From contig OZ024742.1 in assembly GCA_964016885.1 (NCBI GenBank), positions 226,858,001-226,922,000 of the forward strand: 64,000 bases of DNA, given 5' to 3'. Position 1 is the stretch's first letter. Each line of letters opens with the position of its first letter. Below are positions 16,886 through 50,664 of the stretch, piece by piece. The DNA is from Eledone cirrhosa. Taxonomy: Eukaryota. The notes below the pieces were generated by a model, which saw nothing but the letters and a program-made list of their open reading frames with translations, searched no databases and was not told where the DNA came from. The translations under genes and the position numbers were made by a program.

Positions 16886-18045
16886 CTCGTCACACCCTTG
16901 CTAGCAGGGAAAGCGGATGTCAAACGATGGTTGATGATGATATATATATATATATATATAACTTATAAATAAAAAAAAATTAATATGTCATATTAATCTT
17001 TAATACTTGTTTCTAAAAATGTTTTCCAATTCCACCCGGCCTGTCCCTTCAATCTTTCTAATTTCTCATTCTTTTTTCTGATGAAGGACTAGCGTCTAAA
17101 ACGTTAAGACCCTCTTCCTGCTATCTATTTTAAGCGTTAACCTAATATATTCTTTCCAAATACTGTAGCGATTGTGTTGTTATTTCTGTTTACCTTTTAC
17201 ATACATACATACATATATATGATGGCTAGTAGACCACTGATGATGGATAGTCCTGGCTTCTATTTCTAATTCTTCATTTTAATTTGTATATCACATTTGC
17301 AACAACACAGCATGCCATTTTTCATTCCTATATGCTTTCCCCTTCGCTGTGACCTGTCTTTTTCTCTTCCCTTACTGCTATCCTCTTTCTCTCTTCCCCT
17401 TCTATCTCCTTCTCCCTCTTACTTTCATTCACCCCCTCTGCTAGTCACCCTCTCTCGGCTAGCCTCTTCCTCGCACTTTCACTCACTCACTCTCTGCTAC
17501 TCACCCTCTCTCTCACTTCCTCCATCGTCCCACACCGTGCAAAATTCTTTCCTCGCTTACTTTTCGCACGGTTAAGATGTGTCTTTCGTCTTCTCGTCAA
17601 TATTCGCCAGTTCTTATGTTCAAATGAATCATTGACTTGATTTTCTCATTTTTTTCCTCTCTTTACGTTGCCTCATCATTCGTGTTCCACCCAATTCTTT
17701 TTATCCCAATAACTTATTTTAGTTATTGTTCGCGCTAGCCTGAGGTATCTGGTCTTTAATGCGAAGAAATACCTATGATGGCTAGTAGGCCACTGATGAT
17801 GGATATTGTAAGGCAAGTTGTGTCGGGTGATAGTGTCTTGCTCATATAGGGGTATTTCTGGCTGGTTTTCTATGGCTGGATGCCCTTCCTAACGCCAACC
17901 ACATTTACATAAATATATACCATGTATGCTGATCCAGTGCCACAACAAAAGCACCCAGTCCATGCTGTAAAGTGGTTGTATTGGCAACACATCAAAAAGC
18001 ACCCAGCATGGAAAAATGGACGTAAATGACGATATTGATGATGCA

Positions 18046-18392
18046 GGGATCAAAACATGTTTTATTCTACATTCATTTCATTAACGAAATGTAACTGATC
18101 AATAATTTCAATTAATTGATCAATCAATTTTCGTCAACCTCATCAGAAATAATAAACAAGTAAAATTGTACCTTAGAGTACTAAAATTAAATGTGTAATT
18201 ACTTAATATGTCATATATTGTCCAGAGTAATCCTATTTATTCATTAACATGAGTAAATACGATTACTTCTCTTAATACACCTTTTATTTTCTACTCTAAG
18301 GGACACTTTTTCTTATTTTAATTAATCGAAATTATTGATTATCTACATTTTGTTAATGAAACATTACATAGAATAAAAAATGTTTCGATCCC
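18046..18392. mobile_element. AT-rich MITE-like fold-back element
   Basis: Imperfect terminal inverted repeats of about 70 bp, gggatcaaaacat...atgtttcgatccc. Confidence 0.5.
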
Positions 18393-19081
18393 AGCAAACT
18401 CTTTGGTTTTCTTTTCAATACATATTAATACGCTGCGATGCTTCTTATTTTCCAATCTTTCAGATCTTACCTCGGATTTATTTGATCTGCAGGATTAATA
18501 ATCATAACAACACACTGAGATTACTTTCATCTTGTTTAGTCAAAACTGAGTAGATTTCTCTATTTATAAATCTTTGTATGTGTGTATATATATATATTAA
18601 TTCAAAATATTAAGAAATATAGACATTCACTTAATCAAAATATATTTTATTATATGAATGTATATATAGTGTATTTTGCAATACACTGTATGCTTAATTA
18701 AAAGCAATTCGAAGACCTTACGCTATTGTTTTAGAGTAGTGACAGTCTCACTTACTTTAAATTTTCAGCAAACAGGGGAGATAAAGCTGACAGAGCTGTT
18801 TCTTACTGATTGGTACTTATCAAAGCCAAGTACTCCACCTGTTTGCTGAAAATCATGAATGTTTGATTCTTATAGAATTCTAGTAATAATCAGGAACTGA
18901 TTATGCAGAGCAGTTGCCGGTCAAGCAGAAATTGAAAATTAGAATTGGTGCTCTGAAATAGTGATATATATATGAATGTATATATAGTGTATTTTGCAAT
19001 ACACTGTATGCTTAATTAAAAGCATTTCGAAGACATTACGCTATTGTTTTAGAGTAGTGACAGTCTCACTTACTTTAAATT

Positions 19082-20140
19082 CCTGATAGCATATTATTCC
19101 CGGCCTTGACTCTCTACAGTCTCTCGCCATGTGCGGGCCCTGGCACCTAAAACAGTGACCTCTAAACGTTCGCGGGCGACCGCGTGCCGTGGTTGCCTCC
19201 CTTTCACCATTTCTCTGCCAGCTGTCTTGAGCCTCTGTAGTTGCTATCGCCGCGACACTCTTCTTGGCATCTTTTGCTATGATGCGGGCTTGCTCCACCA
19301 GTGCATGCAACTCCATTTCTTTGTAACCCGAACTTGCTGTAGTTTCACCGCTATGTCGTCTGGAAATCCATTTATGAACGCCAACCGCACCGTGCGTTCG
19401 CATTCCACCTGATATCCAGCCAACATGGCCAATCGCCGTATTTCGGCTGCGAAAATGTCAACGCGTTCACCGTTCCATCTAATTCTTGCCAGCTTAGCAA
19501 AAGCGAGTAACGGTCCCTCTGCGAACGCTTCCATCATGCGCCTCTCAATCTTTTGCGTATCCCTTTGGCTGTGTTCATCCATTTCAAGGAAGAGTACCAA
19601 CGCGTCCCCCTCGAGGTACAGTGCCATGAGGCCAGCCACATCTTCTATCTTCTGTAAGCTTGCGACCAGCCGGACTTTTCGCAGCCAAGCGACAACATCG
19701 CCTTCACCGGTAAATGCCCTAATCGCTTCGCTTGTTCGTAGTCTCATCGCCATATCCTAATTTGTCTTGCGGTACGTAATAAAAAAAATAACAGACTCCT
19801 CTCTGTTTTTCCAGTAGCTTTGTTTTCGAGAAAGTTCTTTTTTTTTTTTGATCAGTTCTCAGTTTCCAGTGCCGAAATAGCTTGTGGTTAGAAAAAGCTA
19901 TCTCACCCCATGGCTGGTTTCTCCTCTTCCACGTGCGTACAATCCCACTCGTTAACACCGGGAGCTGCAAAACTCGCGTCCACCACGTTCCTGGTCACTG
20001 TTAGAGAGAGGCCGACCTGCTGGCTCTTCCGGTAGAGCACCCTTCCGGCCAAGCATCCTTCCGGTCAAGCACTCTTCCGGTCGAGCACTCCCCAGCTTCC
20101 GGCCACCGCGCACCACACCATACCCACACAGAGCACCAAT
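19082..20140 (-). mobile_element. gag: Ty3/Gypsy-type LTR retrotransposon remnant: PBS-like site, leader and frameshifted gag
   Basis: ORF from 19753 (FTGEGDVVAWLRKV...LYLEGDAL); frameshift near 19320 to zinc knuckle CFRCQGPHMARDC; truncated at a second knuckle; TGGTGCTCTGTGTG at 20139-20126 resembles a tRNA-Met primer-binding site; GC-rich relative to flanks. Confidence 0.75.
20023..20090. repeat. 16-bp tandem repeat (about 4 copies) in the gag leader
   Basis: cttccggtcaagcact-like units. Confidence 0.8.
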
Positions 20141-20143
20141 TCT

Positions 20144-21418
20144 AATTTTATTATATATATTTCGGAGGTACTGTGCTGTTTTTTCAGTACGTTCTCATCA
20201 GATAAAATACATAAATTGATGTATGACATACCTCAACTGTGCTGATGGTTCAATTCCAGTCTTGGCAGTGATTAATTACAACAAAACTCAATATTTATAT
20301 ACCATAAGTACTAACATGACAAACTAAATATAATGGAGAGGGTGAATAGGAGAAAGTGTAGAAAAAATAAATACATAAATAAAATAAATAACTACAGAAA
20401 CACATAAGTACATAACTGTTAAATATTTAAATATTTAAATATCCGTATTAGAGAAGAAAAAAAATGAGAGAGAGAGAGTGAGCTAAATAGAAGAGAAAAG
20501 GAAAAGAGAAAGAGATGAAGATAAAAACAAAGAGAGGGAGATAGAGATGGTAGAATATATAACAGTATAAGGAAAAGAAAGAAAGAAGAGAGAGACATGA
20601 TGCGTGACCGTTTTTTTTTCTCCAAATATTAAGTCAGGTAGAAGCGATCAATTAAATACCGTGAAATTTTTAATCTATTGTATTTGATAGAAATTATACT
20701 ATTATATTATATCAAAATTAAACAATATACAATAATATAAAATATTTTCAATGATAATCTGGAGCATAGTTAAATTAATAAATACATTCAATAATTTAGT
20801 TATAAAATTCAAAGTTAGAAACATTTGGCAGTATCGGTAGAGGGTCGGACGCCATGCTTTGACGCATAGAGTTACGGCCCTTGCCATTCTGAGTTCAAAT
20901 CCCGCCGAGGTTGACTTTGCCTTTCATCCTTACGGGGTCGATAAAATAAAGTACCAGTAATACACTGGGTAATTGCTGGCCTTGTGCCAAAAGTAGAAAC
21001 AATTATTAACTAACAGTGATGCTTACAAATATAGTAAATAAGTATGAGAGTGTTTAACATAACTTACTTGGATATTAGCATCTGTATATGCATTTGATAT
21101 AATTTTTAGAAATATAAATATTATAAACAATACTATTTAAATCAATATTTGTCAATTACATATAGGATTAATTATTAGTTATATTTACTCTTGAGAGTAT
21201 TATTATTTCGATTCAACCAAATCTTACTGTATTCAATACTATAGATCAAGTTAAATACAGATTATTAATCAATTTGGATAAAACGAAAATTATACACGAT
21301 AAATGTAAATAATAGCTCCGTACAGTTGAGGTATGTCATACATCAATTTATGTATTTTATCTGATGAGGACGTACTGAAAAAACGGCACAGTACACCCGA
21401 AATATATATAATAAAATA
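20144..21418 (+). mobile_element. non-coding Penelope-like remnant with inverted pseudo-LTRs (SINE inserted inside)
   Basis: Inverted arms of about 97 bp at 20144-20240 and 21321-21418, each carrying a hammerhead motif. Confidence 0.7.
21355..21416 (+). ncRNA. type I hammerhead ribozyme motif (inverted copy at 20146..20207, -)
   Basis: ttttat-CTGATGA-G(gacgtactg...cagtacacc)C-GAAA-tatata-TA-ataaaa: core intact, stem I ttttat/ataaaa, palindromic stem III. Confidence 0.75.
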
Positions 21419-21470
21419 TATTTTGATAAAGTGAATGTCTACATTTATTAATATTTTGAATTAATATTAA

Positions 21471-21844
21471 CTAGCTGACGTACCCAGCTTCGCCCGGGTA
21501 AACAGATGATAAGAGAAGACAGGTAAAAGAGAAAATGACTGTATTGGATGGTTGTCTGGTTACAGTATGAGGCGAGTCCGTGGTGTTTGTGTGATACAAA
21601 AAATAGTAAAAAAATCTTCCAGATATACCAGATTCTTCGTTGTACCGTTTGTGCATAGTATATGAACAATTGTAGGTGCTCCCACCTAGAATAGTGACCT
21701 CTAGGAGATGGTTCATCTTCTGCCTAACTGTAAAACGTGTATCATTGCATAGACGAGGTTGTTGCACGTTTCTCAAAAGGATGATGGAAGTTCCAATCTT
21801 TTATATTATATGTAGATATAGATATAGATAATTAATATAAAAGA
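21471..21844 (-). mobile_element. non-autonomous Helitron (copy 1)
   Basis: 5' TC, 3' hairpin acccgggcgaagctgggt then CTAG, inserted between A and T; internal Pif1-helicase remnant LLRNVQQPRLCNDTR. Confidence 0.85.
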
Positions 21845-22050
21845 TGATGCTCAGCCAGTTCGTCTTCAACCATCGCAGCACGCCGTCGCTGCTTGGCTCC
21901 AGTGTTTCGTTGGCGTTGTTCAGCCAGCTCCTCTTCATTCATGGCGGTACGTCATCGCCTCTGAAGTTCGGCGTTCCGATGGCGTTGTTCGGCCCGTTTT
22001 TCTTCATTCCTGGCTGCACGCCGTCGCCGTTGTCGTTAACTGTTTGATAA
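21845..22050 (-). pseudogene. STPR-like 23-aa repeat remnant, probably the N-terminus of a Helitron Rep/helicase
   Basis: RRRRAARNEEKRAEQRHRNAELQ / RR*RTAMNEEELAEQRQRNTGAK / QRRRAAMVEDELAEH. Confidence 0.6.
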
Positions 22051-22318
22051 AGTCGAATTGCTTTTACTTTCTGTGGAACGCTGCACACACACATAAACAT
22101 ATGCGCACGTACATACACACGCACACATGGTAATAGTTACAGCGTTCACTTTGCCTCTCTGTTTCTTACTCTCCCCTCTCACTCCCTCATTGGCATTATG
22201 CATATTAATTTAAGTTTGGCGTCGTTGAGGTGGGAGGAGTCGTTTGAAACCTAAGAACCAATGATAATCGAGAATTATGACACACGGAATAATGACATTG
22301 TTGAAATTAATATATAGA

Positions 22319-22692
22319 CTAGCTGACGTACCCAGCTTCGCTCGGGTAAACAAATGATAAGAGAAGACAGGTAAAAGAGAAAATGACTGTATTGGATGGT
22401 TGTCTGGTTACAGTATGAGGCGAGTCCGTGGTGTCTGTGTGATACAAAAAACAGTAAAAAAATCTTCTAGATATACCAGATTTTTCGTTGTACCGTTTGT
22501 GCATAGTATATGAACAATTGTAGGTGCTCCCACCTAGAATAGTGACTTCTAGGAGATGGTTCATCTTCTACCTGACTGTAAAACGTGTATCATTGCATAG
22601 ACGAGGTTGTTGCACGTTTCTCAAAAGGATGATGGAAGTTCCAATCTTTTATATTATATGTAGATATAGATATAGATAATTAATATAAAAGA
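22319..22692 (-). mobile_element. non-autonomous Helitron (copy 2)
   Basis: 374-bp near-identical copy of 21471..21844 with the same TC...hairpin-CTAG termini. Confidence 0.85.
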
Positions 22693-23932
22693 TGTCTGTC
22701 AATGTAAAAAAAGGTCCCTATTTACTCCCTTCACAACTCTGTGTATGTTAGACTGACAGACAGACACACAGACAGATAAACTGCGTGGCGATTGTGGGAT
22801 GCCGCACGTACACACACATACACGCATGGAAACGCGCACACGCACTTTTAATATTTTGATATTTGTAGAATTCTTTTGTTTTTAAGTTATATTGATATAA
22901 TTATATTTCCAAAATATAATCCTTTTGTATTTTATATACTCAATTGTACTATGTAATATATTGATGTATACTTATCTCTATACGACTATGTATGTATATA
23001 TGTGTATTAACATACATATACATGTGTTATATGCTTTTTATGAGTATATGTCTGTCTATATATATGCATGAGTGACACGTGTCTACCAATTGGGTGAAGA
23101 TGCACACACATATTTATATATGTATATCTAAGAATTGTGTGTGTACATGTACATGGTTACCCATGCAGTTTTGATTGCAGATATGCATAATTTAACAGCC
23201 ATAAATGCATGAAAGTTAATCCTATATATTTATATATATATACTAAAATTTTTTATTTAATAACACAAGGAATGTATAGCAGTAATAAAAAAAATCACTT
23301 ATGCTTTGTATGTATATATTATATGCGGGAGTAGATATAATGTGTATTTTCTGAGTGTGTGTGTATATATATATTTATGTATCTTTGCCTATATGTACGT
23401 GCTATATGATAGGTAATTTCTCTAGCAATATATATATTTCGTAATGTTTAAATTCCAATTTTTAATATATTGATCTCAATTTTTAAACTAAATATCTAAT
23501 CATAATTAAACAATGATTAATTTCTCATATTATATATGTATATTCCATTCATGAATAGTAATATTTCTAATTTTATTTATTCATTTCATCTCAATTGTTA
23601 ACTCAACTTAATATGACATGACTTAAGGTTTTCGTTCTCTCCCCCTCTCTCTATCTCTATATTTCTCTCTCTTGATTTTTTCTCTCTGTCTGGTGGTTTG
23701 ATATCTCTCTGCTGTTTTCCTCTGTTTTCTTTTTTTCTTTTTTCTTTCTTCTTTTTCTTTATTTATCTCTCCCTTTCTTTTCTCCACGTTTCTCTCTCTC
23801 CGTCTTTTTACTTCTCCTTAACACAACGACTTACTAAAATAAACAAACCACTATCCTGATGTCTTCCAAAAGTAACGGTTGCATTTTGAAAGGGTACGTT
23901 AATGTTTATTTATAAAACTGGTATATATTGTA

Positions 23933-23993
23933 TTTTGTCTGATGAAGGCATACTATAATTTAACTTGGTATCCTTGAAATATGTATAATGAAA
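23933..23993 (+). ncRNA. type I hammerhead ribozyme motif
   Basis: ttttgt-CTGATGA-aggcatac...gtatcctt-GAAA-tatgta-TA-atgaaa, followed by a short tail and (TA)n. Confidence 0.65.
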
Positions 23994-24097
23994 TAAATAT
24001 GGTTTTATAAATATAGTTTCCATTTGTTAATATCGTATATATATATATATATATATATATTTTGTCTGCCTCTATGTTTTGTTCCCGTATAAATTTG

Positions 24098-24133
<36 letters not shown>

Positions 24134-24167
24134 ATACTTTGGGAGGGTCAATATATATATATATATA

Positions 24168-24750
24168 TATATTGTTATACTTTGGGAGGGTCATGTTGCC
24201 AATAAGAAACACACGCACCAGTTGTTTCACTTCAATTTATTATAATCAATATATAAATTTAGGAATTTATAAATTTCCGGTTTGTTGGTTGGTTCCACAA
24301 CCAGATGATTGTTTATATATTGTCAAAGTTCTTTCGTCACACATTCTGTGACCTCTTCAGTGACTGGGGATTCTTTTCTTTGTTTTTGTGCTTCTCCTTT
24401 ATTCTGTCATACGCCATCTTTGTTCTGTCCTACGCCATCAAGATGGCGTAGGACAGAACAAAGGAGAGGCACAAAAACAAAGAAAAGAATCCCCAGTCAC
24501 TGAAGAGGTCACAGAATGTGTGACGAAAGAACTTTGACAATATATAAACAATCATCTGGTTGTGGAACCAACCAACCAACCGGAAATTTATAAATTCCTA
24601 AATTTATAAATTTATTATAATAAATTGAAGTGAAAGCAACTGGTGCGTGTGTTTCTTATTGGCAACATGACCTTCCCAAAGTATAACAATATCGGTTTCA
24701 ACACACGTTTGCAGATAAAGAATCTTGCTAAACAAATTCAGAAACGAAAT
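24168..24750 (+). mobile_element. fold-back non-autonomous Penelope-like element (about 520-bp palindrome plus 60-nt tail) in (TA)n
   Basis: 24168-24440 is the near-perfect reverse complement of 24441-24692; degenerate relatives at 15320-15362, 50160-50390 and 52520-52550. Confidence 0.8.
24496..24538 (+). ncRNA. minimal type I hammerhead ribozyme (inverted copy at 24322..24364, -)
   Basis: gtca-CTGAAGA-ggtcacagaatgtgtgac-GAAA-gaac-TT-tgac; stem I gtca/tgac, stem II gtcac/gtgac. Confidence 0.75.
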
Positions 24751-24809
24751 ATATATATATAACCAAATGTTATATATATAAAATAATATAAAATATTTTC
24801 AATGATAAT

Positions 24810-25108
24810 CTGGAGCATAGCTTAGTGGTTAGCGCATTATCCTTGTAATCGAAAGGTTGTGAGTTTAATTCTCAGACCGGGTGATTTGTTGTTTCCTTGA
24901 GCAAGACACTTTATTTCACATTTCTCCAGTTTACTCAGCTGTAGAAATGAGATGATAGGACTGGGGTCCCTATCATTCCACTGCAAAGTGGCCTTGGAGG
25001 TGCCATGGCAAAAAATGAGGTTGGTGTTAGGAAGGGCATCTAGCTGTAGAAATCAAGCCAGAATCAGTTCCCGTCCCACCCTTGCAAGCAAGGAAAAGCG
25101 GACGTAAA

Positions 25109-25140
<32 letters not shown>
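24810..25140 (+). mobile_element. SINE with tRNA-like head and RTE-type 3' tail
   Basis: Closely matches 52175-52520; tail ggttggtgttaggaagggcatccagc...ggacgtaaaa(tga)n is shared with RTE 3' ends. Confidence 0.75.
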
Positions 25141-25141
<1 letters not shown>

Positions 25142-25484
25142 CTGATGATATATATATACCAGTGTAAAGTGGTCGTGTAGGCGACACGGCAAAAAGCACC
25201 CAGCACACACTGTAAATGTGGTTGGCGTTAGGAAGGGCATCCAGCCATAGAAACCAATCCAAAATCAGTTCTGTGTGAATGAATCATGGTCCCCCGACCT
25301 GATCCCTCTCATGGGATAGCCCATCTTACTCATGCTAGCATGGAAGATGGACGTTAAGCGATGATAATGATAATGATAATGATGATGATGATATATCTAC
25401 ACATATATATGTCCGTTTTTTTCTGTTAAAGAGGTTTATATTTCCCATAATTTAATTTCGACTATTTCTCTGTGGTCCAAAAAT

Positions 25485-25515
<31 letters not shown>

Positions 25516-25547
25516 AGAACAAAAGATGGTTAAAAGAGTTCCATGTA

Positions 25548-25614
25548 TTTTATTATGCGCATTTCAAAAACAAATATCATCATGCAATAATATTTGTGTT
25601 TTCATCAGATAAAA
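25548..25614 (-). ncRNA. type I hammerhead ribozyme in the 3' pseudo-LTR of the PLE
   Basis: Minus strand: ttttat-CTGATGA-aaacacaaatatta...tgatatttgttttt-GAAA-tgcgca-TA-ataaaa. Confidence 0.75.
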
Positions 25615-25980
25615 TAGGAAGACATGATATGAAGGTTAAAAAACACTTGTGGATAGTGCAGTTTTAAATCAACATATGAAAAGTAGCTTTAGATTGATGT
25701 GTGATATTGGGAAAAAAAAATTTTTGAGGGGGGTGGGGGGTGGAAAGGATGAAAAAGAGGGGGAGATGAGAGTAAAAAGTGGAGAGGGAGGAGTATAATG
25801 AGGAAGGATGAGATAGGAGGAGAGATGGGTGATAGAGAGAGAGAGAGGTAGCTTTTATAACTGAGAGAAATATATTGTTTTACATAGAGAGGTTGAAAAA
25901 CCGTTGGAAGATAATGTATAAATTAAAAGAATTTGAAAATTAACGAAGAGAAAAATAATGTAAAGTTAATGTTTGTAATG

Positions 25981-26148
25981 AAGGGTTTAATAATATGTGC
26001 GATGAAAAGAAAATGTTAATATGTATTAAGAATAATATTTAAGGGTTTAATAATATGTGCGATGGAAAGAAAATGTTAATATGTATTAAGAATAATATTT
26101 AAGGGTTTAATAATATGTGCGATGGAAAGAAAATGTTGATATGTATTA
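25981..26148. repeat. 60-bp tandem repeat, about 2.8 copies
   Basis: aagggtttaataatatgtgcgatg... repeated at 25981, 26041 and 26101. Confidence 0.95.
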
Positions 26149-26563
26149 TTAAAAGAACAACAAGTAATGTAAGTAAGGATATATTGTGAGATGAGCATGA
26201 GTAAGTTAGATGAAAGGGAGAAAAAAATAATGAATTGAGGATGAATAATCGAACGTCAAAAAATGTTTATGTTTACGAAGGATTTTTGCAAGGTAATATA
26301 AAGTAAGAATGTATTGTATTGTGTAATAATTGTTTCTATGTTAGGCAACAGTGAGAAAAGGTACAGATTAGGGGTTAGATATTAAAAGAAAAAGAGAAGA
26401 AAGGGAAGTGATAAATAGGAGTGATATAGAATGAGTAACAAGTATTATATAATGTATAATAAATAACTTTGAAATAAGGTAGAAAGATGGGTATATTTTT
26501 AAAGAAGTATATATATATATGTGCCTTTGAGAAAAAGATTCTAAATTGATAAAGTTTTGGATG

Positions 26564-27757
26564 TTAGCTGTATACTTTGTGGAATGTTTTGTGGAATGTA
26601 TGCAAGCAGAGAGAAAACAAGTCAGTGCGTCTATTTATTATAGAATCTAAATTAGATATAATGGTAAATTTTTCATTTAGACAGAGATTGCAAATCTTGG
26701 ATAGAGAACTGTTCAAGTATAAAGACGCAGAAGAAACCTTTTTCCAAAAGATGCTATATTTAATATTTTTGTCTTTCAAGGACCATATGAGTTCTGAGAG
26801 AGCCGTCTTGGTTCTTTTAAGTTTGTATTTAAAAGACGAATGATGGTTATAAAGACGAGCTTTAAAGGAGGTGGAAGTGGAGCCAAAATAGGTGAAGGAA
26901 TTGGTGTCAGTTATAACTTTACATTCGTAAATTAAGTTTTTATCAAGACAATGGTTGTTGAGAGGACATTTATTTTTAACAGGGCAATTGCAATTGCGAT
27001 TAGAGAGATTATTAACGAGTGACCTAGTGTTATCTATAGAAGGAATTGGATTGGAGAAGTTATTTGCGATAGGAATAATAGTTTCTTGATTTAGAATGGG
27101 ATTAAGAACATTTAGCGAAGTTGTGTTTGACGTTGTATTTGGGTTTGCAGAAATTAGCCTAGGGTTTACAATGACGTCGGGAGTACTATTACTATTATTA
27201 TGATGTTCAGTGTTGGAAGGAAGAGATTTAGTATTTAGTATTGTATTGTTGTGTTTAGAGATAATGTTGGAAATGTTGGAGGATGTCGAATAGGAAAATT
27301 TTATAGTGTGTTTGTTAAATATTTTACTATAGATATGTGAGGGAGGGAAGCATTTATTTAAGGCACTAAAGAATAATTTAGGAATATTATTATTAATAGA
27401 GATGGAGAAAGGAGCATTATACCAGATTATGTTTTTGTATCTAGGTCTTTTATTAAAGTTATTGGAATGATCATGATTAATTATTCTACTGTAAAATCTT
27501 CTAGAATTTGTTTCTTTACTATATTTGATTTTATCAGGATAGCCGGCTTTAGAAAGCGCGTTATTATAGCAATTGGCGTTAGCATCAAAGATGTTTTTAT
27601 TAGAAGATAGGTTAGATATTCTTTTTCCAATATTACTAACTATAGCATTCTTGATATTAGTAGGATGGTTAGATTTAAAATTAACATAATTTAGGTTCTC
27701 ATTGTTTTTATGGTAAGGGTAATATAGGCCAGTGTCAAGATTAAGAGATACATCCAA
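26564..27757 (-). pseudogene. Penelope-like RT thumb + GIY-YIG endonuclease ORF (truncated, frameshifted upstream)
   Basis: SNHP, IIWYNAPFS, FSYS, CNC-x5-CPL-x3-C, LIY...YFGST..FKARLYNH, TALSELIW, CNLC, CLH motifs. Confidence 0.85.
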
Positions 27758-27941
27758 GAAATTAGCTAGTTTGAGGCTGTTATCAAATTCAATTTTTAGG
27801 TTATGTTGGTTAAAGAGATTACGTATATTGTTCTTAATAATATGTTAACTATGTTGCAATTTAAGATAGTAAAGAGTCCATCGTCACGATAAATTCCACC
27901 GCGAAGTTGAGGAATTTTCCGACTCAAAGAGTTCAAAATAA

Positions 27942-28005
<64 letters not shown>

Positions 28006-28049
28006 ATATATATATATATATAATTTATATATATATATATATATATATG

Positions 28050-28358
28050 TTACGTAATTCCAAAGGAAAGGCAAAAGAAAAAAGAGTGCTCTATGTATAG
28101 AACAGAGCCATTTAATTAGAAAGTGAACATCACAAAATATAACTACTCCATTACCAAAGGTTTCTGGATCATAGATGATAATAATATATATCTGGGTCGT
28201 TCGTCCGATAGAGATGTTATGTTTTTTTCTTCATTTCATATCTTTTTTCCATAACATCTCTATCTGATGAACGACCCAGACATATATATTATTATCGTCT
28301 GTGATCCAGAAACTTTTGGTAACAGAGTAGTTATATTTTGTGTTGTTCACTTTCTAAT

Positions 28359-28362
<4 letters not shown>
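28050..28362 (-). mobile_element. fold-back non-autonomous Penelope-like element in (TA)n
   Basis: Inverted arms 28111-28221 / 28250-28362 plus unpaired tail 28050-28110. Confidence 0.75.
28258..28327 (+). ncRNA. type I hammerhead ribozyme motif (mutated inverted copy at about 28146..28213)
   Basis: ctctat-CTGATGA-...-GAAA-cttttgg-TA-acagag; the other arm gives GAAA-cctttgg-TA-atggag. Confidence 0.6.
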
Positions 28363-28440
<78 letters not shown>

Positions 28441-28443
<3 letters not shown>

Positions 28444-31285
28444 CACAAGAATCAAAGCTATGTTCAAAGCATTTATTCACTTACAATTGTTTCATCCAAA
28501 CCTAGGCTTGGAGTCTTCGGAGAATTTTTCAATGTTTGTACATATAATTGACCTCCTTTCCGATGCAAGAGACATACAGATACATATATATATATATTGA
28601 TGTAATAAGAATAATAACCACACACACACTAGTACGAAGGGTGGCAACAAACGTAATTCACACCAGAGAGGTCACCAAAATACCATAAACGAAAACATCT
28701 CACCAGACATAAAAAACAAAAATAGAAGAAGAACTAATACATTTTTCAACCCCCCTTTCAATCTAAATATCTCTACCAACCTACCTAAGGCTTTCTTCTC
28801 ACTCCTGGATAAAAACTTCCCATCTGGCCACAAGTACCATAGTCTTATAAATAAAAACACCATTAAAATCTCCTACTCTACCACGCCTAACATAGCATAC
28901 CACAGAGCTAGTAGCAATAAAAGAAAGATTAATACTTACTTTCAACAAACTAAAATACAGCAGGGGGTAAACTTTCAAAACAATGTAATATCTGCAAACC
29001 CTGATGTCAATAGTAATAATAGTAATAACACTAGTGAAATCAATAACACTGGGAGCGACAGCCCCCATAGCCATAATGCAATACCTAGCAACCAGACTTC
29101 TACACAACATAATAACCGGCAGGTTAGCATCCAAAAAAATTGTAACTGTAGATCTAATAGAACCTGCCCTTTAGATAAAAACTCATGCACCGTCAGAACT
29201 AGCAACTCTTCTGAAACCTATATAGGCTCTACTTCGAACTGCTTCAAAACCAGATACAATTCAAAACCTCCATTCTTTCAAAAAACACAGTCTAGCCAAC
29301 TCCACTTCACTATCTAGCTACATACACTATCTAAAAACTAGAAATAGATCTTATACACTTCAATGGGAAGTGATAGGTAAGGCGGCATCGTACAGACCAC
29401 CTAATAAATTCTGTAACCTCTGTCTTCTAGAGACCCATACTATAATCTTCTCGAACCTTAACCTCCTTAATAAAAAATCAGAAGTGTTTGCGTCGTGCCA
29501 ACACCGCTTCTGGCACTTCTTCCAAAACTTTAAACCCAATATATAACAATGTCAGACTTGAACCCATCACCGCTTCTAACACCACACCTCAAGGGCACGC
29601 CTTACACCACAACACCACACTCTCTGATCCACTCTATCTCGACACAAATCATTCCATCTATCTATAACTTTATACCCTAGAAATATCCCCATAAACACCT
29701 ACTTTTATTATAATTACTTTCAATTACTTATAATTATGTAGTGATATAATACAGTCTATATAAACTTTAAATACTAGATACAGCAGTGAATTATATATGC
29801 AATTGTAATTAAATGTATGGAGTAATAACATTGGTTATATATAGGATTAATTTATTAACATAAGGGATCTGTCTAACTTATATGTAGGGTGCTGCAATGA
29901 ATTATATGTGAATTATATAAGAATTATATATGCAAGTATAACTTGATGGATAGATTAATGACATTGTAAATGAGGGATGTATTTGTCTACCCTAGAGTTG
30001 TATTTGGTTTTGTCATGTAAACAGCCATACGCTGCTCCATAACTTACTAGGGGTTATGTAGACAAAATTCTAATAGGCCCTCTGATGTGTTTTGAGAGTA
30101 GACTGTATTTACAGTGAACTTTGATATAAAGATATGGCACTTTGTATGGAAAATTCAATTGTAGCACTATATAATGAGGAGTAATCAACTTACTATAGAT
30201 ACCTTTAGTACATTATGATAGAGTAGACTGTATGTAAAATTGAAAACTAGATATAAATATATAACCGTTTATATAAGGGACTCAATTGAGGCACCATATA
30301 ATGTATGTTAGAATAGTGAATTTAGTTATGAGAATCAGCTAGTTACCCCCCCCCCCCCCTTACGCATTAACTCCCCTTAATTACACACATACTTCTGGGT
30401 AATAAACCACTGTACATTCTCGCAGCAGAAAGAACCTATTCTATAAATATGGATTAAAATAACACTGAGCCTCAATACACTACATCAATTTAATGCATCA
30501 AACATTCACTACGGAATCATTGTTACTTATGTGATGGATGTAAAAACTATTTCTTACTTTTTCTGAATGTGAAAATGGTGGTGGATACGAAAACCATAAC
30601 TTTCTTTTGCATCTTCTTTTTATTTTTATTTCTCTGCACACATACTTTTTTGATCTATACTAAAAATACCCTACCACTACAACCACCATAATACTCTTGC
30701 TTACCCGCTTAAAGTGCTTGCATTACATGTAACACCTTACCACACAATAATCGTATAAAAATGAGACACACTTGCATGCTCCATGTGTAACTAACACATA
30801 CACTACCTACTAGATCTGACTATCAAACTATCCTCCTGCATTATCTGTTTTATCTGCAGAATGAATTTTAATTTTGATTTTTATTTTAATTTGATTTTGA
30901 TTTTGATCTTGAATTTGAATTGCTGTACAAAAATAGTATAGTGTAATATATGTCACTCCACTGTACATCAATATATATATATATGTATCTGTATGTCTCT
31001 TGCGTTGGAAAGGAGGTCAATTATATGTACAAACATTGAAAAATGCTCCAAAGACTCCAAGCCTAGGTTTGGATGAAACAATTGTAAGTGAATAAATGCT
31101 TTGAACATAGCTTTGATTCTTGTGAATTCTATATAACTGCTCTGTAGAACAACTGATGTTATTACATTGAGCTATTTATCTTACTGGTAATAAGGTAGTA
31201 ATAAATTACTGACCTTCATTGTTTAAGGTTTAAAATATACATAACTATAAAAAGTTTAATATATACATAACCATAAATAGTATCC

Positions 31286-31290
<5 letters not shown>
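28441..31290 (+). mobile_element. degenerate Naiad-type Penelope-like element with inverted 5' pseudo-LTR
   Basis: FFNPPFNL, KISYS, CNCRSNRTCPL, ETYIGST, CNLC, CQH remnants at 28700-29545; about 150-bp inverted repeat 28441-28590 / 30975-31127 with hammerhead-like ccgaaga-ctccaagcctaggtttggat-GAAA-caattg-TA. Confidence 0.85.
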
Positions 31291-31342
<52 letters not shown>

Positions 31343-31351
<9 letters not shown>

Positions 31352-31562
31352 ACAAGAGGCTGGACTGGTGTAATAAACCTTTCAAGGATTTACACCAGTC
31401 CAGCCTCCTGTTATTTTATAATAATTAACTCCGTACTCGCACCACCAACTACACAAACGAAGACGGTTGAGTTGCATTACGTTGAGTGCTCTCCATAATA
31501 TTACATCAAGGTTGACCATACCGAATGACCAGTTCTATCCAGTGGTGAACCAACAAACCTAA

Positions 31563-31563
<1 letters not shown>
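31343..31563 (+). mobile_element. small hairpin-headed element in (TA)n
   Basis: About 78-bp hairpin 31343-31420 followed by a 140-nt unique tail, (TA)n on both sides. Confidence 0.55.
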
Positions 31564-31594
<31 letters not shown>

Positions 31595-31596
<2 letters not shown>

Positions 31597-31786
31597 CGAA
31601 GGAAATGTGGTAAGGAACCAGGTGGACCATAACGCACCAAAGTACTCAATACTTGAGGTAGTAGAGTGGGTAATAGGAACCAGTAAGACCCCGACAGCTG
31701 AGCTCAAGCCGTTTCGACGGCTAATTCTGGTCCAGAATTAGCCGTCGAAACGGCTTGAGCTCAGCTGTCGGGGTCTTACTGGTTCC

Positions 31787-31790
<4 letters not shown>
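31595..31790 (-). mobile_element. fold-back element with perfect 117-bp palindrome centred on hammerhead stem II
   Basis: 31673-31789 has perfect 58-bp arms; GAAA-cggcttgagctcagctg-TC; relatives at 5643-5805, 35570-35655 and 35951-36148. Confidence 0.8.
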
Positions 31791-31842
<52 letters not shown>

Positions 31843-31849
<7 letters not shown>

Positions 31850-32860
31850 GTAAGTTTGAAGAATTATTAGATAAAATATACCCAGTCTTTCCTCACTCTA
31901 GTCCGTAGAAATCAACCAGATAAATAATCATTTAAATGAGGCTATAAGTTTAAAATGTAACTATGAAGAAATAATAGACAAATGATACAGACTATTTACT
32001 ACGAGCAACAGTCAGATAAAACTTATCTAGTCATTCCTTTTAGCCCGTAGAAATTAACTAGACAAATAATCAATTAAACGGAGTTAGGTCTAAAATATGA
32101 GTAAGAAGAAAAATGCATATAAACTTTACCAAAATTCCTCTAGTCCCGACTATCGACAGTTTCACTCACACTTTGTGGATATATCCGATCCTGGTATTAT
32201 CCATGAGGCTTCGAGCTTATCAAGAGACTCCTCAGGTTTGAACTAAAATTTCCACAGTGATCACTGCCAGAAATGAATTCAAAAATGGCTAAGAATCATC
32301 ACGTGGCTAGTGGTCAAAGTAGAAGGACGTGAATGGTGGCCAGGCGGCAAGTAGGCTGGCTGCTAGAAAGTGCAGCCAGATACTGCCTAAAGTTTTACTC
32401 TACTGTACGGGAGTATATATTAAATTTATAGGGATATATGTATATATTTAGACATATATTTAGACATAGTCACAGATACATATATGAGTGTGGCTAGCTT
32501 TCACAGTGTGGCTCAATGAAAAATTTAATTAAGCAAATAATTATCAATCAGAGTTATATATAAAATTGCAAGTTTGAAGAATTATTAGATAAAATATACC
32601 CAGTCTTTCCTCATCCTAGTCCATAGAAATCAACCAGATAAATAATCATGTAACTATGAAGAAATAATAGACAAATGATACAGACTATTTTCCGAGATAT
32701 ATATAACAGTCAGATAAAATTAACTAGACAAATAATCAATTAAACGGAGCTAGGTCTAAAATATAAGTTAGAAGAAAAAATGCATATAAACTTTACCAAA
32801 ATTCCTCTAGTCCCAACTGTCGACAGTTTCGCTCGCACTTTGTGGATATTTCCAATCCTA
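31843..32860 (-). mobile_element. tandem pseudo-LTR / retrozyme-like element
   Basis: Direct repeat 31843-32190 / 32557-32860; degenerate hammerhead 32142..32229 (-): agtctc-TTGATAA-gctc...gagt-GAAA-ctgtcgatag-TC-gggact. Confidence 0.6.
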
Positions 32861-33990
32861 CTTAGCTTTTGTTGACTTGGAGAAAGCCTTTGACAGAGTC
32901 CCACACTCCATTATCTGGTGGGCCCTTAGAAAGCTAGAAGTAGATGAATGGCTTGTGAGAGCTATACAAGCCATGTATAAAGATACAGTCAGCAAGGTTA
33001 GAATTAACAATGAATATAGTGAAGAATTTAACGTAAAAGTTGGTGTTCATCAAGGCTCTGTCCTTAGCCCCCTCCTGTTTATTATTGCCCTTCAGGCTAT
33101 AACAGAGGAGTTTAAGACTGGCTGCCTATGGGAACTTCTATACGCAGATGATCTAACTCTCATAGCTGAATCTATGGCTGAACTAGAGAAGAAATTCCAA
33201 ACATGGAAGCATGGCCAAGAATCAAAAGGCCTTAGAGTCAACTTGTCTAAGACTAAAGTTCTAGTATGTAGAAAGGAAAATAGGGCACAGGTGCCCTCTG
33301 GGAAATGGCTATGCTCAGTGTGTAGGAAAGGAGTAGGTAGAAATTCTATTTTATGTCCCAAATGCTAACCATGGGTACATAAAAGATGTAGTGGGATCAC
33401 AGGCAAGCTATCTAAGAACGTAGATTTTATATGTGGCCGATGCTCAGGTGCAATAAGTACAAATGGATGTGTAATAGTAATAAACACGAACGGCAAAACA
33501 TAAATGAACTAAGTGAGAAATTAGGAATAAGAGGGATCAGATGCTATTTACTTGAGAGAAGATTACATTGGTATGGTCACGTGATACGCATGGAAGACGA
33601 AAGCTGTATAATAAATTGCAGGGCGATCAAAATTGATGGAAGTTATGGAGTAGGTAGACCCAGAAAAACCTGGGACAACATGGTAAATTCCGACCTTGCA
33701 CACTTGCACCTCTCTAAGACAATGTCACTGGATCGAGATCTTTGGCACCATGCAGTATTAGAGAAGACCCGGCTTCCCTACATGCAAAGTTAACCTACAG
33801 TCAGTAGGCACCTCTTAACCAAATATACACCCCTACTCCATCCTCCCACTCCCACCAAAAACCACCCTTTCTCTATAAATTTATGTTGGTATCACAACAT
33901 CCAGTCCAAACTAAAGAGGTTGTGTAGGTGTCACGACAAAAAAAAAAAAAAAACACACACGGTCCACGCTGTAATGTGGCCATGATGAAG
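32860..33990 (+). mobile_element. RTE LINE, 5'-truncated with internal deletion
   Basis: DLEKAFDRVP...GVHQGSVLSP...LLYADDL...CSVC..., RRLHWYGHV...GRPRKTW, then 3' UTR. Confidence 0.92.
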
Positions 33991-34038
33991 GAATTGTAAT
34001 TCTTCCAATATTGGTTATTCCAATGTCTTGGAATCGTC

Positions 34039-34403
34039 AATCAAGTATATTTCGTAGTTATTTATATTTCATGCTTAGAAAACGAAAGCATGCTTGTTTA
34101 TTTATTTATTGTCTGCAGAATTAGAAACATATTGGAAACATGTTGAATGTGAGAAAAGATTAAGTTATTGTACAATTATATATAACTTATCTAAGGTTAA
34201 TATTCTAATATTCTAATGCATATATTTAATTATTTGCTGTATAGAAATATTTTATCAAATTTTCACTTATAAAATAACTTAATCTTTTCTCACATTCAAC
34301 ATGTTTCTAATGTGTTTCTAATACTGCAAATAATAAATAAATAAACAAGCATGCTTTCGTTTCCTAAGCACGCAATATAAATAAGTACAAAATATACTTG
34401 ATT
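34039..34403. repeat. inverted repeat, arms about 130 bp, spacer about 100 bp
   Basis: aatcaagtatattt...gattaagttatt / aataacttaatc...aaatatacttgatt. Confidence 0.8.
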
Positions 34404-35201
34404 CTAACCACAAATACTCCTCTGAATCTTCAACAATAACTTTTCAAGTATGTCATCTTTTTAAAGAACTTCTATACCAGCTTCATTTCTGAGAAACTAC
34501 ATCTTATCATGTATATGCACCATTAAATACATCACAAAAAATAATGCATTCCACCATTGATTACACAATTAAACAACTGCAACTAAACAAACTTTTGGTG
34601 ATGCTTTCTCACTTTTTAGGTTATTAAAGCACACCGTAAAAACTTTTAGTAAATCATACAGGTCTTCCAGTGTGGAATACCTTATTAGTTGAGGACTTCT
34701 TTTAATTCATCATCTGAAATTCATTCTGTATATATTATTGTTTTTGCCATCTCTATAATTGATATATATGTAAGCTGAGAACTTGTGAAAATAAACTCTG
34801 ATGATACCGTTTTTGAGCCTATTCGCGATCGTCGCATTATAAAAACATAAGGAAATTTAGATAATAATTTTTTTATCATAATTTTCTTAAAAAATTATAA
34901 AATTTTTGTTTTTGTAACTTCATATCCTTGGGATAAAGTTCTAACAGCTGAAACGTATTAGTTTTATAGCACATTGACTCTTTGGTGTTTCTTAATCTTT
35001 ATATATATATATTTAATACAATAACAGAGATAGTTTAAAGCTAAACTCTGACTGGTGACCATCTCACTCAATAAACATTAGGTTATATTTAAATATAAAC
35101 CCAATTTAAGTGTTTGGGGTGCTAACAATATGTATAATGTGGAAAAACCAGTTGTATTATTTTATGAGATATAATTAAAGTTAAAGTATATATATATATA
35201 T

Positions 35202-35357
35202 ATATTTATTATAAGAACAGATTAAAGTTTAAGCAAAGAATCGCTGCTTTCACCCTTAATGGGATCTTCAGAAGATCCCGTTAAGGGTAAAAGCAGCGAT
35301 TCTTTGCTTAAACTTTAATCTGTTCTTATAATAAATATTTGCTCTACGGTTTTTCTA
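35202..35357 (+). mobile_element. 137-bp palindrome plus short tail in (TA)n, axis at a hammerhead core
   Basis: Arms 35202-35269 / 35271-35338; minus strand from the axis reads CTGAAGA-tcccattaagggt-GAAA. Confidence 0.7.
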
Positions 35358-35539
35358 CATATATATATATATATATATATAAAATCCTTATCGAGCCCTC
35401 TTCGGATTCTAGTATTCACATTTATTATTATTTATTATTACTATGTATATATTACTATATATTACTATATATATATATATATATCATCATCATCATCATC
35501 ATCATCATGGACATTAAACGATGATGATGATGATGATGA

Positions 35540-35572
<33 letters not shown>

Positions 35573-35912
35573 ATAAGGTATGACCCCGACGGCAGAGCTC
35601 AACCCATTTCGACGGGGTCATACCTTATCCTATCACCCATTTTACTACCCTAAGTTTTTTTTATTTTTATTTTTATTTGTACTTTTAAAAAAATTTCCAT
35701 TACTCTTTAAAAATTGTTCCCCCCCCCCTTTTTTTTTAAATGTCTTTCCACCACTCCCCCACGCACCCTCGGAACTCTCTTCCTACCCACTGTTCTCCTG
35801 ATGAAGGGCTTATGCCAGAAACGTTGTCCCAAACCCTCCACTCTCAAGCGTGACACTAAAAACCATATCATTTGTACTGCCTCTCTGTTTTTTGTTCTCT
35901 GTTCATTTATTC

Positions 35913-35950
<38 letters not shown>

Positions 35951-35955
<5 letters not shown>

Positions 35956-36148
35956 AAAATGTTTGGCCCCAACGGCAGAGCTGAAGCCATTTTGACGGCT
36001 ATTTCTGGACGTCCAGAAATAGCTGTCGAAACGGCTTGAGCTCTGCCGTTGGGGCCAAACATTTTCCTATTACCCACTCTACTACCCTAAGTATTGAGTA
36101 CTCTGGTGCAGTATGGTCCATCTGGTTCCTTACCACACCTCCTTCGTT
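35951..36148 (+). mobile_element. fold-back element, same family as 31595..31790
   Basis: 120-bp palindrome 35951-36070 plus shared tail tacccactctactacc...ccttcgtt, in (TA)n. Confidence 0.8.
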
Positions 36149-36164
36149 AAATATATATATATAT

Positions 36165-46308: not shown

Positions 46309-46477
46309 TGATTACAAGAGGAGGAGAGACAAGGTAGTCAGGAGTACCTGAGTAGAGGTGGTACAAGATCAACCAGATCCAAAGAACAGAGGCTATTGTA
46401 GTAGTGGTAGAAGAGGTAGAGAGAGGAGACAGCACATCTTAGGGCCAGGGGACTGGCTTGCAATGGACTAACATATT

Positions 46478-48368: not shown

Positions 48369-48794
48369 ATGTAAATGATAATAATGGTGATAACGACAAA
48401 GACAATGACGACGACGACGACGACGAAGACAACGACGACGGCGACGACGACGACGATGATGATGATAATGATGATAATGATGATAATGATGATGGTTGTA
48501 GCGTTGAAAAACAATATAAGAAGGCAGTATTACTTTTTGATCCAGTTTAAATTATTTGTGATTGCTGGAATTGGTGGAGTATCTCTCTGTTGAATATTGA
48601 AGAGGATTATAAAAGAATTTCCTCAAAATCACAACGAACCATTTCTTATTCCTTTTCAAATCACATCACTTTACTATTGGAATCGGACACTGACAATATC
48701 TGCAAGATGACATCAATTATAGATACGGCCTTCACTAGAGAATATTGCAGTTTCATTAAAAACCATAACAATAATAATAGTAATAATAATAATA

Positions 48795-50110: not shown

Positions 50111-50664
50111 AAACTGTATTAGCTAATCCATTCCTTGGTTAGTTTAGTGACACATACACACCACAGAAAGACAAGATGAACAAAGAGGAGACACAGAGAA
50201 GCAGAAATACTCATTGAGGTCACAGAATGTGTGATGAAAGAGTTATGATAATTAAATATGCCAAACATATATGGTTACTAAACTAAGAGAGGAATAAATG
50301 AGTTACCTAACTAATAATAAAGTTGAAGTGAAACATAAGGAGTGCTTGAGTTTTTATTAACAACATAACCCTCCAAAAGTATAACAATATTTACATGCAT
50401 GTGTGTGTGTGCATGTGTGTATTTGTGTGTGTGTGTGTGTGTGTATGTGCGTGCGCGTGCGTGCGCGCATGTGTGTGTATTTGAAAATGTGGGAATCCAA
50501 AACTGCAGGTCACTTTTTCCATCCCTATAGGTATTTTACCTGATTTTCTAAGTTAATATTTATAGCAATTGACTGTTATTACAGTAATTTTCTGTTTGGG
50601 ATTTCCACATTTTCAAATTCCAAATCACCCAAGCGCTTCGATAATTCATAAGATATATATATAT

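What the first reader, a model, noticed from the sequence alone, without database searches (positions are those of the whole stretch)
20144..36150. Island of hammerhead-bearing fold-back retroelements stacked in (TA)n, next to Naiad-type PLEs
Seen: roughly ten sequence-unrelated elements in about 16 kb, most flanked by (TA)n. Most share the layout inverted arm / spacer (1 nt to 2.4 kb) / arm + unpaired 20-170 nt tail. Most carry a CTGANGA...GAAA...TH motif with closable stem I and short or palindromic stem III that reads away from the axis (21355, 23933, 24496, 25548, 28258, 31044, 32142, 35270). Two encode Naiad-like GIY-YIG proteins; the rest are non-coding. Known: Penelope-like elements carry minimal type I hammerheads in pseudo-LTRs and can have inverted 5' pLTRs. 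Inference: a diverse, probably uncatalogued set of non-autonomous ribozyme elements mobilised by Naiad enzymes, which target (TA)n and regenerate it, so insertions pile up locally.
Basis: partly seen in the sequence, partly recalled or inferred. Interest (0 to 1): 0.75.

Follow-up and report, generated by a model that had tools for sequence, protein, structure and literature searches.

The report
Piled-up Hydra-Penelope retroelement ends
The mirror-image repeats with hammerhead-ribozyme motifs are real, but most are cut-short ends of ordinary protein-coding Penelope-like jumping genes (Hydra group, not Naiad) piled up in TA repeats; two are non-coding passengers, and a small hairpin shared by their tails likely tells the copying enzyme where to start.

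Summary
The layout is real: 12 repeat families in 16 kb, mostly head-to-head arms with one tail, in (TA)n. The reading is mostly wrong. The two ORFs have reverse transcriptase first and a C-terminal endonuclease with Hydra-clade motifs; Naiads have an N-terminal endonuclease and lack canonical hammerheads. Eight families trace upstream to an ORF (seven Hydra, one Neptune/Nematis type), so the short pieces are truncated, inverted insertions of autonomous Penelope-like elements, a published architecture. Two families (0.7 and about 2 kb head-to-tail units) show no ORF and look non-autonomous; two are unresolved. The island is about eightfold denser than 40 background samples; these families are genome-wide (56,814 exact hits for one). 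Not found in print: a covarying bulged hairpin behind the insertion ends, shared with the passengers; one long plus one short arm in 20 of 20 fold-backs; and family-fixed inner stops, often with an extra G, suggesting run-off at a capped RNA start. The scan noted these before on other DNA of this genome. Cleavage and expression are untested.

The parts
20145..21323 (-). E1 main copy: 5'-truncated 3' UTR of a Hydra PLE family, hammerhead core at 20201, interrupted by a short dispersed repeat at about 20825-20988
   Evidence: same-strand Hydra endonuclease about 1.1 kb upstream in L052, L062, L063, L064
21322..21470 (+). E1 inverted arm, core at 21361, short 3' end
22846..24043 (+). E2: 5'-truncated 3' UTR of a Hydra PLE family, core at 23939, no inverted arm here
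   Evidence: Hydra endonuclease upstream in L136, L139, L143, L146, L220, L221
24169..24761 (.). E3 fold-back (24169-24428 minus, 24439-24761 plus with tail); 3' end of a PLE with a C-terminal endonuclease carrying CX4CxxC and CCHH-type motifs (Neptune/Nematis type); cores 24360- and 24500+; lacks the Hydra tail hairpin
   Evidence: (Pfam GIY-YIG, E 8.6e-5)
25485..27941 (-). E4: 5'-truncated copy of a young Hydra PLE; ORF part 26564-27844 (RT thumb, linker, endonuclease), about 0.9-kb 3' UTR, hammerhead core at 25608
   Evidence: 809-aa open frame in L030; 15,714 exact hits of a 25-mer
28049..28361 (.). E5 fold-back (minus arm with tail 28049-28220, plus arm 28231-28361), core 28264+; 3' end of a Hydra family
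   Evidence: broken Hydra endonuclease about 1.1 kb upstream in L012 and a weaker link in L013/L130
28088..28108 (-). Tail hairpin of E5
   Evidence: read by eye; the same hairpin scored in L002
28433..28604 (-). E6 inverted arm, variant core CCGAAGA at about 28514-28520
28601..31292 (+). E6 main copy: frameshifted Hydra ORF end (about 28649-29546), 1.5-kb 3' UTR, mutated hammerhead core 31048-31054, tail 31136-31292
31139..31172 (+). Tail hairpin of E6
   Evidence: pair probability 0.97
31343..31562 (.). E7 stub: post-hammerhead end and tail of a non-coding head-to-tail unit of about 2 kb (non-autonomous); tail hairpin 31428-31487
31590..31789 (.). E8 fold-back stub (tail on the left, hairpin 31644-31667 minus); holds only the 3' half of a U3-A8 hammerhead; end of a Hydra family
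   Evidence: (L094, L105)
31845..32870 (-). E9: one full 712-bp non-coding unit (32556 to 31845) preceded by a partial copy of its own 3' end; U3-A8 hammerhead core at 32223 (non-autonomous, retrozyme-like)
34039..34403 (.). E10: old palindrome (79% arms), few relatives, no hammerhead core or TA flank seen; unresolved
35202..35462 (.). E11 fold-back stub with tail split by a TA run; family core CAGAAGA (35269-35275 plus); end of a Hydra family
   Evidence: (L217, L219)
35571..35660 (.). Second, shorter E8-family fold-back with partial tail
35661..35915 (+). E12: 3' end of another repeat with a minimal hammerhead-like motif (core 35798) and weak stem I; parent not found
35954..36150 (.). Third E8-family fold-back with tail

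Best explanation
The stretch is a pile of separate insertions into (TA)n, most of them truncated, head-to-head ends of protein-coding Hydra-clade Penelope-like retrotransposons plus two non-coding passenger families, each likely made when the element's enzyme nicks both strands of a TA run and copies its RNA twice from two start points marked by small tail hairpins. Shown: parentage of 8 of 12 families, Hydra motifs, TA flanks, two alternative 3' ends, one long and one short arm per fold-back, a covarying tail hairpin shared with the passengers, family-fixed inner stops. Inferred: transcription starts inside the upstream pseudo-LTR; a protein dimer binds the hairpins in the leader and primes one cDNA from each nicked strand (as the anole PAc enzyme nicks and extends both strands and starts at two internal RNA sites in vitro); priming near the RNA's 5' end runs off the cap and gives short dead-end stubs with an occasional extra G, while priming at the downstream repeat gives longer, variably truncated copies; the two cDNAs are joined head to head; TA sequence is left on both sides and stays a target, so insertions pile up. 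The hammerheads ride along in the pseudo-LTR; cleavage is untested.
For: Domain order and motifs in an 809-aa open frame match the Hydra description and alignment in PMC8557442. ORF links: E1, E2, E3, E4 and E6 (window), E5, E8, E11. TA follows the 3' end in 23 of 29 E4 loci. One tailed and one short arm in 14 of 14 E4 and 6 of 6 E7 short pairs (102, read by eye). [quoted passage not shown] Inner stops: 23 of 30 consecutive E8 arms end within 13 nt of one site; 56,814 hits for the 3' half of the E8 hammerhead against 4,285 for the 5' half; 8 of 30 head-to-head E4 pairs have 243-253 nt spacing. Extra G where the template has C: 6 of 10 scorable E4 arms and 4 of 5 E7 arms. E9 and E7 are preceded by their own 3' end or tail and hold no PLE ORF (48, 55, 75, 80, 81).
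Against: No Rfam hammerhead hit; none of the motifs was tested for cleavage; most do not fold into the hammerhead shape as minimum-energy monomers. The extra G is not clear in E8 (8 of 27 rows, with duplicates and microhomology). Pair probabilities of the tail hairpin range from 0.21 to 0.97, the E1 copy tested (L064) failed the strict descriptor, and families are related, so the covariation count is not independent. The E5 link rests on one clear locus. One E9 locus (L158) has a weak RT hit about 490 nt upstream. No tree was built, and the RWK motif reads RWI in E4. No RNA data set was listed, so the start site is inferred from DNA alone. The 19-mer and 25-mer patterns differ in length and degeneracy, so 13:1 is approximate.
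Confidence: 0.8

Rival explanations
1. One reading: a set of independent non-autonomous ribozyme elements mobilised by Naiad enzymes.
For: Two families (E7, E9) do look non-autonomous; Naiads exist in octopus and prefer (TA)n (PMC8557442 supplement).
Against: Every ORF tied to these ends has a C-terminal endonuclease; 8 of 12 families join such ORFs; the passengers carry the Hydra tail hairpin; Naiads lack canonical hammerheads.
Confidence: 0.03
2. The short fold-backs (E8 above all) are self-propagating mini-elements copied whole from master palindromes.
For: 40 of 40 top E8 matches are identical over about 142 nt and most have an inverted arm at the same axis; tens of thousands of copies.
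Against: That sample was selected for identity to the query; in consecutive hits the junctions differ from locus to locus and the tail sits on either arm (42, 76); stubs lack the 5' half of the hammerhead; arms end at the two normal 3' ends of the parent.
Confidence: 0.1
3. The fixed inner stops are reverse-transcriptase stalls at RNA or cDNA hairpins, or at a splice acceptor, not run-off at a capped start.
For: The E7 stop lies at the 5' edge of a 14-bp hairpin; the E8 stop lies a few bases beyond a 6-bp hairpin and next to an acceptor-like AG; the E11 stop lies at the edge of stem I.
Against: The E4 stop has no such hairpin evident and shows the extra G; stops begin at an A after a pyrimidine, as initiator elements do (recalled; an initiator-like sequence in a pLTR is noted in PMC3846280); no common upstream exon is seen at E8 junctions.
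Confidence: 0.2
4. DNA MITEs with terminal inverted repeats, or assembly fold-back artefacts.
For: Inverted repeats bound several units.
Against: Arm length varies between copies, tails are one-sided, arms continue into retroelement ORFs, arms differ by several percent, and strand-switch joints occur in independent short reads.
Confidence: 0.02

Closest known systems
Hydra clade of C-terminal-endonuclease Penelope-like elements, including Hydra-1_Obim of Octopus bimaculoides (Craig et al. 2021, PMC8557442)
   Same: Single ORF RT then GIY-YIG-type endonuclease, DKT, CxCX5C, CxxC and CxH, no CCHH, hammerhead near the 3' end, (TA)n target, inverted truncated copy and one-sided tail.
   Different: At least seven families with hammerheads unlike that listed for Hydra-1_Obim; 3' UTRs of about 0.8-1.7 kb and tails of about 60-155 nt (the paper says generally under 3 kb and 30-40 bp); copy numbers in the tens of thousands; variant cores; tail hairpin not described in the parts read.
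Poseidon PAc of the green anole in vitro (Frangieh et al. 2024, PMC11167929)
   Same: AT-rich target, two alternative ends that define the tail, both strands nicked and extended, predicted dimer, hammerhead not needed for insertion.
   Different: Other clade; PAc starts in an AC-rich stem-loop inside the ORF start, whereas here the ends lie 5-15 nt before a bulged hairpin in a non-coding leader.
Animal non-LTR retrozymes (PMC7229834; bioRxiv 10.64898/2026.07.22.740005) and non-autonomous Chlamys elements such as MRC1
   Same: Non-coding head-to-tail units with one type I hammerhead, likely moved by PLE proteins (E7, E9).
   Different: E7 (about 2 kb) is longer than the 51-972 bp range reported; E7 and E9 occur as dispersed partial tandems and fold-backs, not long arrays; circular RNA not shown.
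Minimal PLE hammerheads, including the U3-A8 variant and opposite-strand pairs (Cervera and de la Pena 2014, PMC4209133)
   Same: Type I topology, palindromic or short stem III, extra base after the core, U3-A8 core in E8 and E9, head-to-head pairs from truncated PLEs.
   Different: Cores with C or A at position 4 (E6, E11) were not found in the texts read or in one search.
Naiad PLEs
   Same: (TA)n preference, inverted copies and tails.
   Different: Endonuclease N-terminal with CCHH, no canonical hammerhead; none found here.

Membership tests
Hydra-clade PLE (E1, E2, E4, E5, E6, E8, E11) | Single ORF with endonuclease C-terminal to RT | tested here: met
   809-aa open frame in L030; order also seen in L131, L132, L220-L222, L219
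Hydra-clade PLE | CxCX5C linker, no CCHH, C-terminal CxxC and CxH | tested here: met
   E4, E8, E2, E1 endonucleases; E5, E6 and E11 copies are broken or partial and show only some motifs
Hydra-clade PLE | DKT motif | tested here: met
   E4 ORF in L030; not examined in the other families
Hydra-clade PLE | N-terminal RWK motif | tested here: inconclusive
   E4 reads RWI at that place
Hydra-clade PLE | Insertion into (TA)n | tested here: met
   23 of 29 E4 3' ends; flanks
Hydra-clade PLE | Hammerhead motif near the 3' end | tested here: met
   CTGANGA cores in E1, E2, E4, E5; variant cores in E6, E8, E11
Hydra-clade PLE | RT tree placement with reference Hydra proteins | not tested
   Compared by eye with the paper's alignment only
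Naiad PLE | N-terminal GIY-YIG endonuclease | tested here: not met
Naiad PLE | CCHH motif inside the endonuclease and absence of canonical hammerhead | tested here: not met
Neptune or Nematis PLE (E3) | [quoted passage not shown] | tested here: met
   L124/L223, L224
Neptune or Nematis PLE (E3) | RT-based assignment to one of the two clades | not tested
   No copy with a usable RT was fetched
Non-LTR retrozyme / non-autonomous PLE (E7, E9) | Non-coding head-to-tail unit with a type I hammerhead | tested here: met
   E9: 712 bp, longest frame 50 aa, own 3' end upstream in 9 distinct loci and in contig joints; E7: about 2 kb, own tail upstream in 4 of 12 loci, no PLE protein hit
Non-LTR retrozyme / non-autonomous PLE (E7, E9) | Two or more consecutive complete units with hammerheads | tested here: not met
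   Only partial tandems seen within 1.5-kb flanks; longer arrays elsewhere not excluded
Non-LTR retrozyme / non-autonomous PLE (E7, E9) | Self-cleavage and circular RNA | not testable with these tools
   No RNA holder listed
Type I hammerhead ribozyme | Conserved core with three closable stems | tested here: met
   Descriptor; the full E8 motif folds as a three-way junction; compensatory changes in the E9 stem III palindrome. Rfam models do not score them
Type I hammerhead ribozyme | Catalytic activity | not testable with these tools
   In print only 1 of 9 Xenopus dimers cleaved and minimal PLE motifs were weak
TIR DNA MITE | Fixed-length terminal inverted repeats at both ends | tested here: not met
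   Variable arms, one-sided tails, ORF links

The most novel reading that the evidence does not exclude
Hydra-clade Penelope elements use a pair of conserved bulged RNA hairpins in their leader as landing pads for a protein dimer; each subunit primes one strand of a nicked TA repeat just before its hairpin, which explains the one-long-one-short fold-back, and any RNA that keeps the hairpins, such as the 0.7-kb and 2-kb non-coding ribozyme units here, becomes a passenger.
Probability: 0.45. Interest if true: 0.65.

Novelty: new member of a known kind. Interest (0 to 1): 0.42.

Why it matters
How Penelope-like elements insert is still largely open. This genome holds young Hydra families with open ORFs of about 800 aa and, by rough extrapolation, some 450,000 arms of these families, so it records the reaction many times over. 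A 20-nt-scale RNA signal shared by autonomous and passenger elements, and predicted start sites, give a direct bench test and a possible minimal cis-element for RNA-templated insertion at TA repeats. As a catalogue item, the island itself is an ordinary dense patch of a known element type, and the full ORF has no Pfam hit, so such elements are easily mis-annotated.

Tried and rejected
Rfam scan: no hammerhead family, only hairpin-driven microRNA noise. Pfam: nothing for the Hydra ORFs, GIY-YIG only for the E3 parent. E7 first looked like a short element with a fixed 5' end (14 of 14 loci), but that sample was selected by the query; longer copies exist. E8 first looked like a clonal master palindrome; consecutive hits show varied junctions. 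A tRNA-like Pol III head for E8 was considered from sequence and dropped because the B-box-like stretch is not kept across subfamilies; ARAGORN finds no tRNA in the window. The sharp depth drop at 1518 in the RAD reads sits on a probable restriction site and was not used; the contig depth drop there is only a crude agreement. No RNA holder listed. E12: no ORF within 1.5 kb upstream in 12 loci. E10: 6 candidates only. Literature searches for octopus hammerheads, non-autonomous octopus PLEs, position-4 core variants and a PLE tail stem-loop gave no description of these families or of the hairpin; the library lacks most subscription journals and Repbase/Dfam, and the supplements of the 2026 preprint and the repeat library of PMC13282606 were not seen, so prior cataloguing is not excluded. 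Motif positions of the hairpins and the long/short arm classes were read by eye rather than computed.
Full report
Setting. The window is G000:C3:226858001-226922000 in a 3.0-Gb assembly. It is inferred to be an octopus-type genome: the one named protein relative of the main ORF comes from Argonauta hians.

Observation. Self-comparison finds ten close inverted-arm pairs between 20145 and 36070 with (TA)n runs between most. I sort them, with four single-arm pieces, into 12 families (E1-E12). A strict type I hammerhead descriptor gives 4 hits in the stretch against 0.1 on average in 100 simulations; Rfam gives none. Three are variants or junction products: E6 has C at position 4, E9 has the U3-A8 core, and E11 has A at position 4, its CTGAAGA arising at the palindrome centre. 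The fold-backs are not artefacts: arms differ and are asymmetric, and E8 strand-switch joints occur in raw reads of three other samples.

The enzymes are Hydra, not Naiad. The ORF at 26564-27844 runs RT thumb, linker, endonuclease. All 98 scored genome matches are 93-100% identical and one (L030) is an 809-aa open frame with DKT, CxCX5C, CxxC and CxH and no CCHH. Craig et al. 2021 (PMC8557442; seen: main text parts 1-6 of 10, supplement parts 2, 52, 53 and search passages) define Hydra by these features, report canonical hammerheads and (TA)n targets for it, list an octopus member, and state that Naiads have an N-terminal endonuclease and lack canonical hammerheads. Their Fig. 2 legend describes the inverted truncated copy and one-sided tail. 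No tree was built here.

Parentage. Same-strand Hydra endonuclease sequence lies upstream of E1 (4 of 14 loci within 1.5 kb), E2 (5 of 12, confirmed in L220 and L221), E5 (1 clear of 19), E8 (L094, L105 of 30) and E11 (L217, L219, L198); E4 and E6 show it in the window. E3 joins a C-terminal endonuclease of Neptune/Nematis type. Most loci simply stop earlier, as truncated copies do. E9 is different: a 712-bp unit with no frame over 50 aa whose first base is preceded by its own 3' end in 9 distinct loci among 14 plus 30 partly overlapping ones, and in contig joints; one locus has a weak RT hit nearby. E7 is a unit of about 2 kb preceded by its own tail in 4 of 12 loci, with no PLE protein hit and 1,795 exact hits of a 25-mer. 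These two fit non-autonomous PLE partners or non-LTR retrozymes (PMC7229834, part 2 of 6 and passages; bioRxiv 10.64898/2026.07.22.740005, parts 1-3 of 5). E10 and E12 remain unresolved.

Is it an island? The same library finds 60 arms in 40 evenly placed 10-kb samples (19 with none, maximum 7) against 19 in these 16 kb: about eightfold denser, with a bias because the library was cut from the island. Arm number tracks TA-run number (Spearman 0.65), partly by construction. The crude extrapolation is about 450,000 arms genome-wide; exact patterns give 56,814 hits for E8 and 15,714 for E4. The island is the dense tail of a genome-wide clumped pattern.

Clues to mechanism. (a) Each family has a short and a long 3' end. 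In 14 of the 16 shortest E4 pairs among the first 100 hits (two not fetched) and 6 selected E7 pairs, every fold-back had one long and one short arm (read by eye). (b) A few bases behind the short end, and in E4 and E7 again behind the long end, lies RCTC, an inner stem, a 2-nt bulge and GAGY. It was scored in 11 places in 9 families (one of them, F9, from flanking DNA, not the window); the first pair is A-T in 5 and G-C in 6; E3, E12 and the one E1 copy tested did not match. By eye it is also in three of the six published Hydra consensus sequences and in altered form in the others. I noted it before opening the scan's notes. (c) Inner stops are family-fixed: 23 of 30 consecutive E8 arms, some from the same fold-back, stop within 13 nt and none between 14 and 66 nt; E4 arms cluster 112 nt before the GAAA. 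(d) The run-off idea came from earlier notes of this scan and was tested here: an extra G stands where the template has C in 6 of 10 scorable E4 arms (two loci unscorable) and 4 of 5 E7 arms (two rows dropped as not truncated arms); two E11 fold-backs have a single central G-C pair; E8 is not decisive. Frangieh et al. 2024 (PMC11167929, parts 1-2 of 4) showed for an anole PLE that both strands are nicked and extended, that cDNA starts at two internal RNA sites matching the tail ends, and that hammerhead cleavage is not needed. Arkhipova et al. 2013 (PMC3846280, passages) note an initiator-like sequence in a pLTR and mobilisation in trans by pLTRs. Together these give the model in Best explanation; the enzyme steps are inferred.

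What is known and what is not. Architecture, clade, TA target, minimal hammerheads, the U3-A8 core and opposite-strand pairs are in print (PMC8557442; PMC4209133, parts 1-2 of 4). A 2026 O. vulgaris repeat annotation counts 31 recently active Penelope-like families but has no occurrence of Hydra, Naiad or ribozyme in its main text (PMC13282606, passages). The family diversity, the two passenger units, the hairpin, the long/short rule and the position-4 cores were not found in searches. The scan has reported the Hydra reading, the hairpin and a non-autonomous partner before on other DNA of this genome; those notes are not independent evidence.

Verdict. Real feature, known kind, wrong clade, mostly not non-autonomous; moderate interest for the mechanistic signals.

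Noticed in passing
window 19000-20143: Decayed gag-like frames with a zinc-knuckle-like motif on the minus strand, probably an LTR-retrotransposon remnant, abutting the E1 3' end.
   Followed up: no
window 21463-22750: Two near-identical copies of a roughly 380-nt repeat (starting about 21471 and 22320) sit where the E1 right arm ends; type not determined.
   Followed up: no
window 32811-33793: RTE-like LINE fragment (Pfam RVT_1, E 1.6e-23) directly upstream of the partial E9 copy.
   Followed up: partly
window 17078 and many loci: A further abundant family with a minimal hammerhead-like motif similar to E12.
   Followed up: partly
L006, L085, L100 flanks: Another hammerhead family (F9) with a longer stem III and the same tail hairpin; not in the window; parent ORF not sought.
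   Followed up: partly
window 50664-50981 and 18042-18396: Other old inverted repeats with CTGANGA-like motifs (50756-, 18146-) outside the finding.
   Followed up: no
L081:1700-2100: Fold-back distantly related to E9 (75% identity) with the same tail motif, suggesting more passenger families.
   Followed up: no
L268 and L329 (E7 unit): The 2-kb E7 unit contains internal repeats and GC-rich stretches resembling its own hairpin region; function unknown.
   Followed up: no
window 46338-48550: A 2-kb CTT/GAA-type simple-repeat block.
   Followed up: no
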